This document shows, piece after piece, positions 2,960-29,296 of a stretch of DNA of 64,000 nt. The stretch is from a virus (Duplodnaviria; Caudoviricetes): IMG/VR virus record IMGVR_UViG_3300013121_000027, positions 64,001-128,000 of that record; one strand, given 5' to 3'. Within the stretch, counting starts at the first letter, position 1, and every line of letters starts with the position of its first letter. Under the pieces are notes generated by a model. That model was not told the DNA's origin and ran no database searches. It worked only from the letters and a program-made list of their open reading frames with translations. The translations under genes were made by a program, and so were the position numbers.

Positions 2960-3754
2960 ATGGCTAATAACACTAAAAGGATGATCCTGATTGGCTGTGG
3001 AGGTACAGGAACATGGCTTGCCCATGGTCTTGCTAAATCTCTTCAGTTTCAAGCTCCAGGATCTGCTCTTCTTCTTATAGATGGCGATTCATTTGAACCT
3101 AAGAATGCAGAACGTCAACAGTTTTCACATACTGGTAATAAAGCTTACGTTTTAGCCGAAGATATTCAATATCAAAACCAAGCTATATTTGTTATCCCTC
3201 GTGCTGCCTGGATTGTATCTGCTGATGTTGAGGATCAAGTAGATGACGACGAAGCTGATGATGGTGCTGTTGTTGTTGCCCGTATTACTGCAGAATCTTT
3301 GCTTGAAGAGAACGATATTGTTTATGCCTGTGTAGATAACTATGCTGCCCGTAAGTTGATTTTTGATGCCGCAAAGAATCTCTCTAATATAGATGTCTTT
3401 ACTGGTGGCAATGATGAACATCTCTTTGGAACCGTCTATCATTACCGTCGTCGCGATGGACAAGATATAACTTTTCCTCCAGACTATTTCCATGATGAGT
3501 TTATTAATCCTGGAGATAAGAATCCTGGTGAACTCTCCTGCCAAGAAAGAGCAGAGCTTGATGGCGGAACTCAATTGCTCGCTGTAAATATGGCAGTTGC
3601 CTCTCATTTACTTGCCAAAACCGCTCATACGATTTTTGGTACTGAAAAAGAAAATAAGGCTGCCTTGGAAAAGGCAGAAATATACTTTGACCTTGAATTG
3701 GGTCTCTCTCAACCCTATGATCGCCGTCCAGCTTTGGTTGCTGTAACGGTTTAA
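2960..3754 (+). CDS. ThiF/E1-like ubiquitin-activating enzyme
   Basis: IGCGGTG, DGD..EPKNAERQ, CVDNYAAR, candidate catalytic Cys in ELSC. Confidence 0.92.
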   Translation: MANNTKRMILIGCGGTGTWLAHGLAKSLQFQAPGSALLLIDGDSFEPKNAERQQFSHTGNKAYVLAEDIQYQNQAIFVIPRAAWIVSADVEDQVDDDEADDGAVVVARITAESLLEENDIVYACVDNYAARKLIFDAAKNLSNIDVFTGGNDEHLFGTVYHYRRRDGQDITFPPDYFHDEFINPGDKNPGELSCQERAELDGGTQLLAVNMAVASHLLAKTAHTIFGTEKENKAALEKAEIYFDLELGLSQPYDRRPALVAVTV

Positions 3755-16661: not shown

Positions 16662-17360
16662 ATGACAAAGAAAAATTACACTCATATTACTGCCGTTGTA
16701 GATCGTTCTGGATCGATGGTGACCATTCAGGAAGATGCCCAAGGTGGTATTAACCAGCTTATTGTAGCAAATAAAGAAGCTCCTGGTCAATGTACCTTTG
16801 CTCTCTATCAGTTTGATACAGAATTCGAAACTGTAGTTGCACCATCAAACATTTCTATGGTCGGAGAGTATACTCTTGTACCTCGTGGTGGAACTGCCCT
16901 TCTTGATGCTCAATGGAAAGCTATTCAACTAACTGGTGAATATCTTAAGTCTTTACCAGAAAAACAACGTCCTGAAAAGGTTATCTTCATCACCGTAACT
17001 GATGGTGGGGAAAATATGTCAAAGGAAATTGTTGGATGGCAAGGTACACAAAACCTTAAGAATAAAATTGAAGAGCAGAAGAATAAGTATTCTTGGGATT
17101 TCGTTTACATTGGCGCCAATCAGGACGCTTTTGCTGTCGGTCAATCAATGGGAATTAATACTACTACTACCTATATACCAAATACCTGGTCCACTAAGGC
17201 TATGTACGGCAATCTTGCGACCGCTACTGTGACCTCACGTGCTACAGGCGAATCAATGACTAATTATCTTGCTTCGTCTGTCACTGCTGATGGCACTCTT
17301 GTCTTTGATAAGAAAGACAAAGAGGAAAAGAAAGAAGCTACAACTGGAGATAATAAATGA
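16662..17360 (+). CDS. von Willebrand factor A domain protein
   Basis: MIDAS DRSGSM, PRGGTALLDA, TDGGEN, WDFVYIGANQDA. Confidence 0.9.
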   Translation: MTKKNYTHITAVVDRSGSMVTIQEDAQGGINQLIVANKEAPGQCTFALYQFDTEFETVVAPSNISMVGEYTLVPRGGTALLDAQWKAIQLTGEYLKSLPEKQRPEKVIFITVTDGGENMSKEIVGWQGTQNLKNKIEEQKNKYSWDFVYIGANQDAFAVGQSMGINTTTTYIPNTWSTKAMYGNLATATVTSRATGESMTNYLASSVTADGTLVFDKKDKEEKKEATTGDNK

Positions 17361-17725
17361 ACGTATAGGGTAAATTATACCTTTTCATTAGATCAGATTT
17401 ATCACCTGGGTTAATTACTGCTCAGGCTTGTCATGTTGCTATGTCTGCATGCGAGAAATGGGATTTATATCCTGACAATATAGTTGTTGTATTGGATGGA
17501 GGTAAATCCGAAGATGATCTAATGATTCTTTTAGACAAGTTGACTTGGTGGTGTGGCAATTCTGAATTTTGGGAAGAACCGCGCTTAGGAGACGATGACG
17601 TTGTCGTTTTCCGTGAACCAGATCTTCTTGAGGACATGACAGGATTTGCAATAGTTCCTGGCAAACTTCCTGATTGGGTCTTATCCATCCCTCTTCTGTT
17701 TTCGGAAGGGGGTGAATCTAAATGA
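17357..17725 (+). CDS. peptidyl-tRNA hydrolase 2 (Pth2)-like protein with in-frame TAG at codon 4
   Basis: ATG AAC GTA TAG then GKLYLFIRSDLSPGLITAQACHVA...IVVVL...FREPDL..MTGFAIVP...LSIPLL; SD GGAGA and ATGA coupling to vWA. Confidence 0.75.
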
Positions 17726-18033
17726 CTATAGGTACAATCCTCTCCACTGAAGAGCGCTTGCAAGAACAAGTAAATTCTCTTCGCCAACAGGTTGGCAATT
17801 TAAACTACGAACTGTATCACTACAGAGACGAAAATAAAAAACCTTCCTGGCTTCAGGCAAAGATGATGAGTCAAGCTAAAGCTCTTACGAATTTGAATAA
17901 AAGAGTTCGTATGCAGCGGCTTATTCTCAGAGAGTTGAATGTTATTAATCCTGAACTCGCAGATACTATATTTAACTTGGTTAAAGATAAGTATCCAGTC
18001 GAGTTAAATGATCAAATACAATTAACTTTCTAA
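17722..18033 (+). CDS. coiled-coil hypothetical protein
   Basis: ATGA overlap, ends QIQLTF. Confidence 0.6.
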   Translation: MTIGTILSTEERLQEQVNSLRQQVGNLNYELYHYRDENKKPSWLQAKMMSQAKALTNLNKRVRMQRLILRELNVINPELADTIFNLVKDKYPVELNDQIQLTF

Positions 18034-18038
18034 CAGAT

Positions 18039-18078
18039 TTACCTTCTGGAGTTTCGCGGAACGTACTCCAGGAGGTAA
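18039..18078 (+). other. 14-bp hairpin immediately 5' of the suppressor tRNA
   Basis: TTACCTTCTGGAGT / ACTCCAGGAGGTAA. Confidence 0.6.
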
Positions 18079-18081
18079 TAC

Positions 18082-18155
18082 GGTTTCATAGTTCAATGTA
18101 GAACGACATCCTCTAAAGATGTGCGTTGCGGGTTCAAGTCCCGCTGAAACCTCCA
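18082..18155 (+). tRNA. amber suppressor tRNA (anticodon CTA)
   Basis: GGTTTCA/TGAAACC acceptor, ACATC-CTCTAAA-GATGT, T-arm GCGGG-TTCAAGT-CCCGC, encoded CCA. Confidence 0.88.
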
Positions 18156-18355
18156 TGAATAACCATCCCCTAATAGGCAGATGTGTCGAGCTTGTTGAAA
18201 TGATAGACGATCCAGATCCAATTCCCTATGGTGCAAGAGGGACTGTGATGCGTGTTGTTCGATTTTTAGAAACAGAAGTTATAACTGTTAATTGGGAAAT
18301 AAAAAGATGTTTAAATCTTGTCTCACCACCCGATAAATATGTTATAATAGATTAG
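18155..18355 (+). CDS. DUF4314-like small protein
   Basis: G.RVEL..M.DDP.PIP.G..GTV..V.....I.V.W.....L.LV...D.Y pattern; ATG overlaps tRNA CCA. Confidence 0.7.
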   Translation: MNNHPLIGRCVELVEMIDDPDPIPYGARGTVMRVVRFLETEVITVNWEIKRCLNLVSPPDKYVIID

Positions 18356-18794: not shown

Positions 18795-18929
18795 TGTCAA
18801 AGCCGAATAAAATTCTTTATCGCCTTTCAAGCGGGTGGTCACAGGTTCAAATCCTGTCAAGGGCTAATTCCCTTTGTAGCTCAGTCCGGTAGAGCACCTA
18901 AACGAGGATTTTAAAAACTTGTTTTGACG
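18795..18929 (+). ncRNA. Y RNA-like unit 5 (YrlA-type, circularly permuted tRNA mimic)
   Basis: TGTCAAAGC-CGAA...CTT-GTTTTGACG; T-arm ACAGGTTCAAATCCTGT, capped acceptor stem, then D-arm TAGCTCAGTCCGGTAGAGCA. Confidence 0.88.
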
Positions 18930-18936
18930 CCCTCTA

Positions 18937-19243: not shown

Positions 19244-20827
19244 ATGACTACCGATCCTCTGATGCAGTTCAATATGCAGACCACTCCTCAGACTCAGCAA
19301 GCTGATAAGGCTCAGGTCCAGAATAATGCTGGTGGGTTTTCTTTTGAGGTTTCTACCGATCAGCGTCTGCTTCGTTTCTTAATTCTTGGTACTTGGGGCG
19401 GAACTTATTACGTCTCTGAGCAGAAGCTTACTAAGGATTCTTTCGAGAATGTTAAGAAGCTGGTTGACATTGACGGAAAGAAGGTTGTTGATATGGTACT
19501 TGATGTATCGCTCAACAACCGTGCTTATAAGCAGAACCCAACTCTGTTCACTCTCGCTGTAGCTTCTGCCGCTGATGACGTTGAGACTCGTCGCTATGCT
19601 CTTGCCGCTGTAGAAAAGGTATGCCGTACTGGCACCATGTTCTTCCAGTTCCTTGCTTATACTGAGCAGTTCCGTGGCTGGGGTTCCGCTCTTCAGAAGG
19701 CTGCTGCCAATTGGTACACTAATAAGACTCCCGATCAGCTTGCTAATCAGCTTGTCAAGTACCGTCAGCGTGATGGTTGGACTCACCGTGACGTTTTGCG
19801 TCTTGCAAAGCCTAAGATCGCCGCTGACAACCCTATCACGCCAGCTATTCGTTGGACCGTAGGTAAGGATACCGATCCCATTCTGCTTCCAGAGCTGATC
19901 TATGGCTTCCAGGAAGCTCAGAAGGTCACCAATGCTAAGGAGTGGGTGAAGCTTATCGAGCAGTATAAGCTTCCTTGGGAAGCTCTGCCAACCCAGGCTC
20001 TCAATGAGCCTTTGGTTTGGGAAGCTCTTGCTCCCCATATGGGATTGACTGCCTTGATTCGTAATCTTGGTAAGATGAGCGCCTGTGGTGCTCTTGTAAA
20101 CCATAGTGATCTTTCTAAGATTGTCAATGGTCGCCTCAGCGACAAGGAAGCATACCTCAAGGCTCGCGTACATCCAATGCAAGTTCTTCTTGCTCAGAGT
20201 GTTTACTCTGCTGGACGCGGCTTTAAGGGTAATAATACCTGGAATCCAGTTGCAACTGTTGTAGATAATCTTAATGAGGGATTCTATGCTGCATTTGGCA
20301 ACCTTCCAGAAACTGGTAAGCGTCGTATGCTTGCCATTGACGTGTCTGGGTCAATGGGCATGGGCACAATTGCTAATACCTTCTTGACGCCTCGTGATGC
20401 CTCTGCTGCACTTGCTATGGTAGCCCTTCACCAGGATCCGGAAAGCTATACCTTTGGCTTCTCTGGTGGCTTCATTCCTCTTGGCTTGTCCAAGGGTATG
20501 CGCTTGGATTCTGTTATTAAGAAGGTCAATGGTCTTCCTTTTGACAGAACCGATTGTGCTCTGCCTATGGTACACGCAAAGAAGGATCAATTGAAGGTGG
20601 ATTCATTTGAAATCTATACTGACAACGAGACCTGGGCTGGTAAGATTCATCCTCATCAGGCATTGAAGGACTACCGTGCTTGGTCTGGCATCAATTCCAA
20701 GTTTGTTGTAAATGGTATGGTCGCAAACAACTTTACTGTTGCCGATCCTAAGGATCCAGGATCGATCGACGTAGTTGGTTTCGATGCCTCTACCCCAAGC
20801 ATGGTATCAGATTTCATTTGCCAATAA
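19244..20827 (+). CDS. rsr: Ro60/TROVE-domain RNA-binding protein
   Basis: QVQNNAGGFSF, LLRFLILGTWGGTYY, KYRQRDGWTHRDVLRLAKP, ALIRNLGKM, vWA DVSGSM, YTDNETW, VVGFDA; SD AAGGAG. Confidence 0.96.
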   Translation: MTTDPLMQFNMQTTPQTQQADKAQVQNNAGGFSFEVSTDQRLLRFLILGTWGGTYYVSEQKLTKDSFENVKKLVDIDGKKVVDMVLDVSLNNRAYKQNPTLFTLAVASAADDVETRRYALAAVEKVCRTGTMFFQFLAYTEQFRGWGSALQKAAANWYTNKTPDQLANQLVKYRQRDGWTHRDVLRLAKPKIAADNPITPAIRWTVGKDTDPILLPELIYGFQEAQKVTNAKEWVKLIEQYKLPWEALPTQALNEPLVWEALAPHMGLTALIRNLGKMSACGALVNHSDLSKIVNGRLSDKEAYLKARVHPMQVLLAQSVYSAGRGFKGNNTWNPVATVVDNLNEGFYAAFGNLPETGKRRMLAIDVSGSMGMGTIANTFLTPRDASAALAMVALHQDPESYTFGFSGGFIPLGLSKGMRLDSVIKKVNGLPFDRTDCALPMVHAKKDQLKVDSFEIYTDNETWAGKIHPHQALKDYRAWSGINSKFVVNGMVANNFTVADPKDPGSIDVVGFDASTPSMVSDFICQ

Positions 20828-23037: not shown

Positions 23038-23116
23038 GCCTCAGTATCGGTCCGGGTTTCTACCCCGTCATTAACACCGTAATTGGAGTATGCAGGTTCG
23101 AATCCTGTCTGAGGTA
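23038..23116 (+). tRNA. atypical tRNA-like RNA lacking a D-arm (loop TTTCTAC, Arg-TCT?)
   Basis: GCCTCAG/CTGAGGT acceptor, T-arm GCAGG-TTCGAAT-CCTGT, CGGG/CCCG arm. Confidence 0.55.
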
Positions 23117-29222: not shown

Positions 29223-29296
29223 GTGGGTATGGTAATGGTTAACCGGCACGGCTCCAACCCGTCGCATAGGAAGAGGTTCGATTCCTTTTACCCGCG
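29223..29296 (+). tRNA. tRNA-Trp(CCA), atypical D-arm
   Basis: GTGGGTA/TACCCGC, ACGG-CTCCAAC-CCGT, T-loop TTCGATT. Confidence 0.72.

What the first reader, a model, noticed from the sequence alone, without database searches (positions are those of the whole stretch)
17357..18155. Pth2-like gene gated by an amber codon, with an amber suppressor tRNA 0.7 kb downstream
Seen: SD GGAGA and an ATGA-coupled start at 17357 read M-N-V-TAG-GKLYLFIRSDLSPGLITAQACH..., in frame with ORF 17441-17725. The conserved Pth2 N-terminal motif lies upstream of the next ATG, so an intact enzyme needs readthrough of TAG 17366-17368. A CUA-anticodon tRNA lies at 18082. Other genes use TAG as a normal stop. Inference: a local recoding switch in which Pth2 is made only when the suppressor is charged or RF1 is limiting. 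The three-codon minigene could itself report on termination or peptidyl-tRNA stress.
Basis: partly seen in the sequence, partly recalled or inferred. Interest (0 to 1): 0.8.

Follow-up and report, generated by a model that had tools for sequence, protein, structure and literature searches.

The report
Amber-gated phage Pth2-like gene, suppressor tRNA
A 231-kb phage that otherwise uses the normal genetic code keeps the stop codon UAG as the fourth codon of a small tRNA-hydrolase-like gene. Its own UAG-reading tRNA lies 0.7 kb downstream, and every relative I could fetch keeps this pairing, so the protein is probably made only when that tRNA overrides the stop.

Summary
ATG 17357, AAC, GTA, TAG 17366-17368 run in frame into an ORF that ends at 17725, and a tRNA(CUA) lies at 18082-18155.

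- **Not an error or private mutation.** All 26 homologous sequences of this clade carry TAG directly before the conserved [G/D][K/R]-L-Y start of the domain. They show 14 different leader versions and come from independent metagenomes.
- **Linked tRNA.** A tRNA(CUA) lies 0.3-1.2 kb downstream in 17 of the 19 contigs that reach far enough.
- **A working tRNA.** 19 of its 21 stem pairs show compensatory changes, and the anticodon never varies.
- **A real fold.** The protein has a Pth2 fold (Z 10-11.5). Its first strand and helix lie between the TAG and the next ATG.
- **Standard code elsewhere.** I found no other convincing in-frame TAG in the genome, and both flanking genes end in TAG.
- **Wider spread.** The same gate occurs in cultured Tenacibaculum phage pT24 and in four huge phages. 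Cluster C mycobacteriophages keep the Pth2-like gene next to a tRNA(CUA), but their gate is ambiguous.

Best reading: a dedicated amber-readthrough gate. What the protein does is inferred only. The Pth2 catalytic lysine is replaced by leucine, and the inserted amino acid is unknown. I found no published description. This scan has noted the same motif before on other DNA (at least 47 genomes).

The parts
16662..17360 (+). Upstream VWA-like gene (232 aa). Its TGA stop overlaps the ATG of the gated gene (ATGA), so the two are probably translationally coupled.
   Evidence: Pfam VWA_2 is weak (E 0.0037); phrog_7371 scores 2.8e-45. The same 4-nt overlap is seen in L004-L007.
17346..17349 (+). Shine-Dalgarno GGAG, 7 nt before ATG 17357.
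   Evidence: Comparable AGGA/GGAG boxes lie 6-7 nt before the leader start in the relatives.
17357..17368 (+). Leader ATG AAC GTA followed by the gate codon TAG (17366-17368).
   Evidence: The TAG is invariant in 26 of 26 clade sequences, while leader length (1-6 codons) and sequence vary.
17357..17725 (+). Full gated ORF: 122 codons including the TAG, then stop TGA 17723-17725. It encodes a Pth2-fold protein. The strand (residues 7-11) and helix (17-35) carrying the family-invariant L7, Y8, G18, A22, Q23 and H26 lie before the first canonical internal start (ATG 17441, codon 29).
   Evidence: translation; AlphaFold2 model, pLDDT 79.8; Z 10-11.5 to Pth2 structures; invariant columns; single copy in the genome, 1 TAG inside.
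17722..18033 (+). Conserved 103-aa gene coupled to the gated gene by an ATGA overlap. The protein looks helical and has an invariant basic stretch (K47, Q51, N59, R61, R63, Q65, R66, R70). No family was found.
   Evidence: No Pfam, PHROG or NCBIfam assignment. It is present between the gated gene and the tRNA in nine of the lineages.
18082..18155 (+). Elongator-type tRNA with anticodon CUA and an encoded CCA end. It is the only CUA tRNA among the 22 tRNA genes of the genome.
   Evidence: An alignment of 12 orthologues shows compensatory changes in 19 of 21 pairs and an invariant CTA.
18155..18355 (+). DUF4314 gene. Its likely ATG uses the last A of the tRNA's CCA, and it ends in TAG.
   Evidence: (PF14192, 1.1e-6). 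The same abutting layout is seen in L002, L005 and L006.

Best explanation
**Proposed mechanism.** This is a dedicated amber-readthrough gate. Ribosomes start at ATG 17357, helped by the GGAG box and by coupling to the upstream gene. They reach UAG at codon 4.
- If host RF1 wins, a tripeptide is released and no protein is made.
- If the phage's own tRNA(CUA), charged by a host synthetase, decodes the UAG, translation continues to give a 122-residue Pth2-fold protein.

Synthesis of this tRNA-ester-hydrolase-like protein is therefore tied to the presence and charging of the suppressor tRNA encoded 0.7 kb downstream in the same gene cluster.

**Shown here**
- The gate and its strict conservation.
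- The linked, selectively maintained tRNA(CUA).
- The fold.
- The need for readthrough to make an intact fold in this clade.
- Standard use of TAG elsewhere in the genome.

**Inferred**
- That the tRNA reads this codon.
- Which residue goes in.
- What the protein does. My preferred guess is that it acts on peptidyl- or aminoacyl-tRNA produced or used in the suppressing state, so gate plus product form a feedback or feed-forward loop on UAG decoding, in the manner of RF2 and its in-frame UGA.
For: 1. **The TAG is invariant.** All 26 sequences of the clade carry it, always directly before [G/D/N/E/S][K/R]-L-Y. They show 14 leader versions with leaders of 1-6 codons, and protein identity falls to about 36%. 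Neighbouring codons vary synonymously: Leu is TTA, CTT, CTG, CTA or CTC, and Arg is AGA, CGA, CGC or AGG.
2. **The tRNA is linked.** A tRNA(CUA) lies downstream in 17 of the 19 contigs that reach far enough, twice in tandem in L022.
3. **The tRNA is under selection.** 19 of 21 pairs have compensatory changes, mean column identity is 70%, and the anticodon is invariant.
4. **The protein is real and needs the stretch after the TAG.**
   - AlphaFold2 model pLDDT is 79.8.
   - VIA-align gives Z 10.1-11.5, rmsd 2.5-2.8 A over 95-100 residues, to Pth2 structures 3erj, 1q7s, 1wn2, 2zv3, 1rlk and 1xty. The best match outside the Pth2-fold proteins scores Z 2.9.
   - A profile search against PDB finds only Pth2 chains.
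   - Strand 7-11 and helix 17-35 precede the internal ATG.
5. **The internal ATG is not conserved.** It is Ile in the L008 and L024 lineages and GTG in L022.
6. **No start-like codon follows the TAG in this clade.** The next codon is GGT, GAT, GAC, AGT, AAC, GAA or GGC.
7. **There is no genome-wide recoding.**
8. **The gate occurs outside the clade.** It is in cultured Tenacibaculum phage pT24 and in huge phages LR756500, LR756501, LR756502 and LR756504. Cluster C mycobacteriophages have a tRNA(CUA) 130-250 nt after their homologue.
9. **The base after the gate TAG is a purine in all 22 gate versions.** Among ordinary TAG stops in this genome it is a purine in 17 of 33. From memory (Bossi 1983), a 3' purine favours amber suppression.
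Against: - There are no expression, proteomic or ribosome-profiling data, so readthrough is inferred.
- The amino-acid identity of the tRNA is unknown. The discriminator base varies (T, G or A) and no paralogue was found in the genome.
- The genome has no release factor or Gln/Glu synthetase of its own. Suppression must therefore compete with host RF1 and would also extend the phage's own TAG-ended genes, including both neighbours. I found no enrichment of back-up stops after TAG (p 0.64).
- Two contigs keep the gate but have no tRNA(CUA) in 2-4 kb of downstream DNA (L010, L016). Two huge phages have none within 4 kb.
- Outside this clade the codon after the TAG is GTG, ATT or ATA, so reinitiation is possible there.
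- The Pth2 catalytic Lys aligns with an invariant Leu.
Confidence: 0.75

Rival explanations
1. The leader plus TAG is a tiny upstream ORF that only tunes translation. After terminating at TAG, ribosomes restart at the next codon or nearby without any suppressor, and the tRNA(CUA) serves other purposes.
For: In other clades the codon after the TAG is a start or near-start codon. It is GTG in L023 and in mycobacteriophages Catera, Myrna and ScoobyDoobyDoo, where the Shine-Dalgarno spacing fits that GTG. It is ATT or ATA in pT24 and in the four huge phages.
Against: In the window's clade the next codon is GGT, GAT, GAC, AGT, AAC, GAA or GGC, and no ATG, GTG or TTG follows for 24 codons. This model does not explain why the stop is always TAG, the rarest stop, and never TAA or TGA. 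It also does not explain why a tRNA(CUA) is linked.
Confidence: 0.1
2. The phage is partly recoded (TAG read as an amino acid, code 15), and this gene is merely one of many with in-frame TAG.
For: The genome has a phage-encoded tRNA(CUA). The collection's gene caller translated the relatives with TAG=Q. LR756501 has a second TAG at codon 37 of its homologue. Lak phages, which are recoded, carry the family.
Against: Scans for in-frame TAG with coding potential on both sides found six cases, all followed by a start codon within 0-8 codons, which fits adjacent genes. The scan for early gates found only this gene with a Shine-Dalgarno box and a start. TAG ends 33 long ORFs and both neighbours. The other TAGs inside the caller's genes in L008 and L010 are gene ends or over-extended starts.
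Confidence: 0.05
3. A shortened protein is made from ATG 17441 (94 aa), and the stretch upstream is not translated.
For: The public gene call for this genome is the 94-aa form, P0002. The same happened for L002, L003, L018 and L022.
Against: The upstream stretch is conserved as protein with synonymous changes. It holds the first strand, the first helix and 6 of the 12 family-invariant residues. The ATG is absent in several lineages.
Confidence: 0.04
4. The TAG is a sequencing error or a private nonsense mutation, making the gene a pseudogene.
For: None beyond a single in-frame stop in a single assembly.
Against: The same TAG is present in 25 other contigs from independent samples and assemblers (ENA, Logan, JGI, IMG/VR, GenBank) at 36-75% protein identity.
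Confidence: 0.01

Closest known systems
Stop-codon-recoded phages with their own suppressor tRNAs (TAG read as Gln, code 15: crAss-like and Lak phages; Borges et al., bioRxiv 10.1101/2021.08.26.457843; PMC9523058)
   Same: A phage-encoded tRNA(CUA) is proposed to override UAG in a standard-code host, and in-frame stops act as a post-transcriptional gate on expression.
   Different: In those phages many structural and lysis genes carry in-frame TAG, and TAG is depleted as a stop. Here one small translation-related gene carries a single TAG at a fixed position near its start, next to the tRNA, while TAG ends about one gene in eight to one in four, including both neighbours.
prfB (release factor 2) autoregulation through an early in-frame UGA (reviewed in PMC5009743; details from my own knowledge)
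   Same: An early, conserved in-frame stop sits in a gene whose product belongs to the machinery that deals with stop codons or their by-products, which suggests a sensor-effector loop.
   Different: prfB escapes its stop by a +1 frameshift and needs no special tRNA, and its product is known to act on that stop. Here escape would be by a suppressor tRNA, and whether the product affects UAG decoding is unknown.
Peptidyl-tRNA hydrolase 2 (Pth2, Pfam PF01981; PDB 3erj, 1q7s, 1wn2, 2zv3, 1xty)
   Same: The fold matches over nearly the whole chain (Z 10-11.5). It shares the motif R-x-D-L ... A-Q-x-x-H-A and an acidic residue at the D-A-G position (E87).
   Different: It scores below the Pfam cut-off. 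The G-K loop is two residues shorter, and the Lys that I recall as catalytic in Sulfolobus Pth2 is an invariant Leu. No activity data exist. SEA-PHAGES annotates the mycobacteriophage members as 'peptidyl tRNA hydrolase', with no assay that I know of.
Orphan amber suppressor tRNAs of standard-code jumbo phages, e.g. Xanthomonas phage XacN1 (PMC5852040)
   Same: A standard-code, tRNA-rich jumbo phage with tRNA(CUA). XacN1 also carries a member of this protein family (ORF364).
   Different: The XacN1 authors read through 18 amber stops and found no target. Its family member is fused to an N-terminal domain and is not gated. Here a specific, conserved target is identified.
Phage lambda bar minigenes (my own knowledge)
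   Same: A Shine-Dalgarno box, a start codon, one to a few codons, then a stop. Such units release short peptidyl-tRNAs that Pth must clear.
   Different: bar minigenes are free-standing and toxic in Pth-deficient hosts. Here the mini-frame continues in frame into a Pth2-like gene, and its stop is always UAG.

Membership tests
Pth2 (PF01981) peptidyl-tRNA hydrolase | Pth2 alpha/beta fold over the whole domain | tested here: met
   Model pLDDT 79.8. Z 10.1-11.5, rmsd 2.5-2.8 A, 95-100 aligned residues to six Pth2 structures; the best match outside the Pth2-fold proteins scores Z 2.9. Foldseek's ten best hits are all Pth2.
Pth2 (PF01981) peptidyl-tRNA hydrolase | Score above Pfam's gathering cut-off | tested here: not met
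   14.9 bits against 23, E 0.031, residues 6-36 only. A family profile does reach Pth2 chains in PDB at E 6.5e-5 to 0.08.
Pth2 (PF01981) peptidyl-tRNA hydrolase | Catalytic Lys of the G-K-x-x-A-Q loop and the Asp of D-A-G (roles recalled from work on Sulfolobus Pth2, not verified in a paper here) | tested here: not met
   The Lys position aligns with Leu19, which is invariant in the close clade, and the loop is two residues shorter. The Asp position aligns with invariant Glu87. Q23 and H26 are kept.
Pth2 (PF01981) peptidyl-tRNA hydrolase | Hydrolysis of peptidyl-tRNA | not testable with these tools
   This needs an enzyme assay.
Code-15 (TAG-recoded) phage | Phage-encoded tRNA(CUA) | tested here: met
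Code-15 (TAG-recoded) phage | Many genes with in-frame TAG, and TAG rare or absent as a terminator | tested here: not met
   Only this gene has a convincing in-frame TAG. TAG ends 33 of 271 long ORFs and 9 of 37 local genes.
Functional elongator suppressor tRNA | Cloverleaf kept by compensatory changes, invariant CUA anticodon, and no initiator marks | tested here: met
   Rfam tRNA 62.5 bits. 19 of 21 pairs covary and CTA is invariant in 12 orthologues. G1-C72 is paired and the anticodon stem has no run of three G-C pairs.
Functional elongator suppressor tRNA | Aminoacylation and decoding of UAG in vivo; identity of the residue | not testable with these tools
   The short variable loop argues against bacterial Tyr, Leu or Ser. 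The discriminator varies. No PylS, GlnRS or GluRS is encoded. ARAGORN's 'Pyl' label reflects the anticodon only.
Autoregulatory recoding gate (prfB-like logic) | Conserved early in-frame stop in a translation-related gene | tested here: met
   26 of 26 clade sequences carry it, as do pT24 and four huge phages.
Autoregulatory recoding gate (prfB-like logic) | The product changes the efficiency of decoding at its own gate | not testable with these tools
   This needs reporter assays with and without the protein.

The most novel reading that the evidence does not exclude
The amber gate, the Pth2-fold hydrolase and the linked tRNA(CUA) form a self-contained homeostat, or switch, for UAG suppression. 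The gate measures how well UAG is being read through. The product then acts on the suppressor's aminoacyl- or peptidyl-ester, or on peptidyl-tRNAs released in the suppressing state. This would set the level of suppression in standard-code phages and would be the ancestral 'code-change module' from which fully recoded phages evolved. It would also give the 'orphan' suppressor tRNAs of many large phages, some of them cultured, their first natural target.
Probability: 0.3. Interest if true: 0.9.

Novelty: new variant of a known kind. Interest (0 to 1): 0.8.

Why it matters
Phage suppressor tRNAs in standard-code phages have had no known targets; the XacN1 authors looked for one and found none (PMC5852040). 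A single gate at a fixed position, conserved in a tRNA-hydrolase-like gene beside the tRNA, gives a concrete and testable target.

It also suggests a minimal recoding circuit that may precede full TAG reassignment. It further shows that standard gene calls cut this family short: the 94-aa call here, and BPT24_235 in pT24, which is annotated 30 codons too late.

Cultured systems exist for direct tests: Tenacibaculum phage pT24, and cluster C mycobacteriophages for the tRNA linkage.

Tried and rejected
- **Similarity searches that found nothing.**
  - blastn of the locus against GenBank phages found no match.
  - A single-protein scan of IMG/VR found none.
  - The broad 17-row alignment was too diverse for the search for related loci. 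The six-row alignment then gave three new loci.
- **Genome-wide recoding.**
  - Codon- and hexamer-score scans for in-frame stops found no excess of TAG.
  - The TAG case at window 24215 is two same-frame genes, with an ATG 5 codons after the stop.
  - A 371-codon minus-strand frame at genome 33445 looks like a shadow of a plus-strand gene.
- **Back-up stops after TAG-ended genes.** No enrichment: median 11 codons against 9-12 for the other stops, p 0.64.
- **RNA structure at the gate.** A small hairpin that starts at the TAG is not significant (z -1.5) and is not kept in relatives.
- **tRNA identity by similarity.** The best match among the phage's other tRNAs is Phe at 73%, which is uninformative.
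- **Initiator-tRNA idea (UAG as a start).** Rejected, because G1-C72 is paired and the anticodon stem has no run of three G-C pairs.
- **Pyrrolysine.** No PylS is encoded.
  - Lak-B9 has M-N-I-TAA-I 31 codons before the domain and a tRNA(UUA) 0.5 kb upstream, but an ATG follows 4 codons later.
  - LR745208 has a tRNA(UUA) right after an ungated gene.
  - Both are inconclusive.
- **Complex prediction.** I did not pursue it, and I make no claim that the two bind.
- **Literature.** Six searches found no description of an amber-gated Pth2-like gene.
Full report
**Observation**

The window is bases 64001-128000 of a complete 231,459-bp phage record with terminal repeats and 38% G+C. One search shows:
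- GGAG at 17346-17349, then 7 nt;
- ATG 17357, whose TG belongs to the TGA stop of the upstream VWA-like gene 16662-17360;
- AAC, GTA, TAG 17366-17368;
- GGT AAA TTA TAC and onward, open to TGA 17723-17725.

The frame has no ATG, GTG or TTG between the TAG and ATG 17441. ARAGORN and Rfam call a tRNA with anticodon CUA at 18082-18155 (62.5 bits). It is the only such tRNA among the 22 in the genome.

**What the gene encodes**

Read through, the frame gives 122 residues. Sequence evidence is weak:
- Pfam PTH2 scores 14.9 bits, below the cut-off of 23, on residues 6-36 only.
- Two PHROGs match, one of unknown function and one 'hydrolase'.

Fold evidence is clear:
- An AlphaFold2 model built on six homologues has pLDDT 79.8.
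- It aligns to six solved Pth2 proteins at Z 10.1-11.5, rmsd 2.5-2.8 A, over 95-100 residues. The best match outside the Pth2-fold proteins scores Z 2.9.
- A family profile finds only Pth2 chains in the PDB.

The first strand (residues 7-11) and first helix (17-35) lie between the TAG and the internal ATG. So do six of the twelve family-invariant residues: L7, Y8, G18, A22, Q23 and H26. An intact fold therefore needs translation through or from the TAG.

The family departs from canonical Pth2. The G-K loop is two residues shorter, and the Lys that I recall as catalytic is Leu19, invariant in the close clade. The D-A-G Asp aligns with invariant Glu87. I call it Pth2-fold, activity unknown.

**The TAG is conserved**

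Homologues came from the protein collections and their contigs. Together with the window they give 26 sequences with 14 different leader versions:
- ATG AAC GTA; ATG AGC GTA; ATG AGT AAC; ATG AAC GTT; ATG AGT AAT; ATG AGT GTT; ATG AGC ATT
- ATG TCT AAC GGA; ATG AAG ATT CAC GAG GCG
- ATG ACC; ATG TCC; TTG AAC GTA; TTG alone
- one leader cut off by a contig end

Every one ends in TAG, directly before [G/D/N/E/S][K/R]-L-Y. Protein identity to the window falls from 75% to about 36%. Flanking codons vary synonymously, so the TAG itself is under selection.

The 'Q' printed in the database proteins is only the gene caller's TAG=Q convention. The internal ATG is not conserved: it is Ile in the L008 and L024 lineages and GTG in L022.

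**The tRNA travels with the gate**

- A tRNA(CUA) lies 0.3-1.2 kb downstream in 17 of the 19 contigs that extend far enough. L022 has two in tandem.
- L003 ends in what looks like the first 15 bases of the tRNA.
- L010, a variant in which the 107-aa gene, an HNH gene and the tRNA are missing, has none in 2 kb downstream. L016 has none in 4 kb.
- Twelve orthologous tRNAs are only 70% identical per column, yet 19 of 21 stem pairs show compensatory changes and CTA never changes.
- It is an elongator type: G1-C72 is paired and the anticodon stem has no run of three G-C pairs.
- The variable loop is short, which argues against bacterial Tyr, Leu or Ser origin.
- The discriminator base varies (T, G or A), and no paralogue in the genome points to an identity.
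- The genome encodes no release factor, GlnRS/GluRS or PylS. Charging must be by a host enzyme, and the residue is unknown.

**Not a recoded genome**

- TAG ends 33 of 271 ORFs of 120 codons or more.
- It ends 9 of 37 plus-strand genes around the locus, including the AAA ATPase gene just upstream (end 16620) and the DUF4314 gene just downstream (end 18355).
- Scans for in-frame stops with coding potential on both sides gave 6 TAG, 19 TAA and 18 TGA cases. All six TAG cases are followed by a start codon within 0-8 codons, as adjacent genes in one frame would be.
- A scan for the design 'Shine-Dalgarno box, start, up to 6 codons, stop, long start-less coding frame' returned only this gene with a Shine-Dalgarno box.
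- In the relatives, neighbouring genes end in TAG. The other TAGs inside the caller's genes are gene ends or over-extended starts.

**Wider family**

tblastn against GenBank phages finds the family in about 235 records.

| Group | What I saw |
|---|---|
| Tenacibaculum phage pT24 (cultured) | ATG AAA TAG ATA..., no canonical start for 30 codons; the deposited CDS starts inside the domain; tRNA(CUA) 2.6 kb upstream |
| Huge phages LR756500, LR756501, LR756502, LR756504 | ATG plus 1-2 codons, then TAG ATT; tRNA(CUA) within 0.8-2.1 kb in the first two |
| Cluster C mycobacteriophages (Catera, Myrna, ScoobyDoobyDoo) | ATG TAG GTG or GTG TAG GTG. The annotated start is the GTG after the TAG and the Shine-Dalgarno spacing fits it, so the gate is ambiguous. 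A tRNA(CUA) lies 130-250 nt after the gene and is mis-labelled tRNA-Arg or tRNA-Ser in older records |
| XacN1 group, Aeromonas phage CC2, LR745208, Lak-B9 | No amber gate. The last two have a tRNA(UUA) beside the gene |

**Mechanism**

The simplest account of an invariant UAG, a start codon with a Shine-Dalgarno box just before it, essential fold elements just after it, no other start, and a linked conserved tRNA(CUA) is programmed readthrough by that tRNA.
- Placing the gate at codons 2-7 means that failure costs only a short peptide.
- The base after the gate is a purine in all 22 gate versions, against 17 of 33 ordinary TAG stops. From memory, a 3' purine favours amber suppression.
- Leader sequences are not conserved, so a specific arrest peptide is unlikely.

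What the protein does is inference. It has the fold of an enzyme that cleaves the ester between a peptide and a tRNA, and it is made only when UAG is being suppressed. I therefore favour a loop in which it clears or trims tRNA esters tied to suppression, comparable in logic to RF2 and its in-frame UGA. The sign of any feedback is open.

**Rivals**

Reinitiation after a tiny upstream ORF fits the clades with GTG or ATT after the TAG, but not this clade. It also does not explain the exclusive use of TAG or the tRNA linkage. Partial code-15 recoding, a truncated 94-aa product and a sequencing error are each contradicted by the data above.

**Comparison and novelty**

Phage suppressor tRNAs and stop-codon recoding of late genes are known (bioRxiv 10.1101/2021.08.26.457843; PMC9523058). 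So are 'orphan' CUA tRNAs in standard-code jumbo phages (PMC5852040).

A single gate at a fixed position in a tRNA-hydrolase-like gene beside the tRNA, in otherwise standard-code phages, was not described in anything my six literature searches returned. Earlier notes of this scan report the same motif in at least 47 other genomes. Those notes are unchecked AI notes, and I tested the claim independently here.

**Limits**

- All evidence is comparative; nothing shows the protein or the readthrough directly.
- The lineage count is not a count of independent events. The window's clade probably inherited the gate once, and the huge-phage/pT24 group is perhaps a second deep branch.
- My coding-potential scans would miss a TAG in a weakly scoring or very short gene.

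Noticed in passing
window 18796-18931 and 19244-20827: A YrlA-like Y RNA (Rfam RF02553, 46.4 bits, E 1.4e-7, below the gathering score) lies directly upstream of a Ro60/TROVE gene (PF25045 2.9e-55, PF05731 4.6e-40).
   Followed up: partly
window 18153-18160: The likely ATG of the DUF4314 gene uses the last A of the tRNA's encoded CCA, so 3' processing of the tRNA would leave a leaderless mRNA. The same abutting layout is seen in L002, L005 and L006.
   Followed up: partly
window 17722-18033; alignment A5: The 103-aa gene coupled to the gated gene has an invariant basic stretch (consensus K-x3-Q-x3-L-x2-L-N-x-R-V-R-x-Q-R-x2-L-R) that looks like an RNA-binding helix. No family was found for it, and it is conserved in nine lineages.
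   Followed up: partly
L034 (Tenacibaculum phage pT24, LC168164.1 about 194110-195036): The deposited CDS BPT24_235 starts 30 codons inside the Pth2-like domain. The frame opens at ATG AAA TAG, so the annotation misses the gated N-terminus.
   Followed up: yes
L038 (Catera, NC_008207.1 91378-91451) and L030 (Myrna, NC_011273.1 33522-33593): tRNAs annotated as tRNA-Arg (Catera gene 154) and tRNA-Ser (Myrna gene 86) have the anticodon CUA by ARAGORN.
   Followed up: yes
L008, L009, L011 (about 2059-2694 in L008): An HNH endonuclease gene is inserted between the 107-aa partner gene and the tRNA(CUA) in one lineage. The sister contig L010 lacks the partner gene, the HNH gene and the tRNA, and joins the gated gene directly to an RlaP gene.
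   Followed up: partly
genome C1 187,457-189,554, plus strand (outside the window): Five or more in-frame TGA codons lie in one frame with high coding scores on both sides and repeated '...TG*LT...' contexts. This could be a repeat protein, a shadow frame or TGA readthrough; I did not examine it.
   Followed up: no
window 23038-23116 and 29223-29296: Two weak Rfam tRNA matches (30.6 and 28.9 bits) that ARAGORN does not call. They may be degenerate or tRNA-like elements.
   Followed up: no
L028 (LR745208.1) 3402-3478 and L039 (Lak-B9) 3344-3416: tRNAs with anticodon UUA (ochre type) lie next to ungated members of the same Pth2-like family. Lak-B9 also has M-N-I-TAA-I 31 codons before the domain.
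   Followed up: partly
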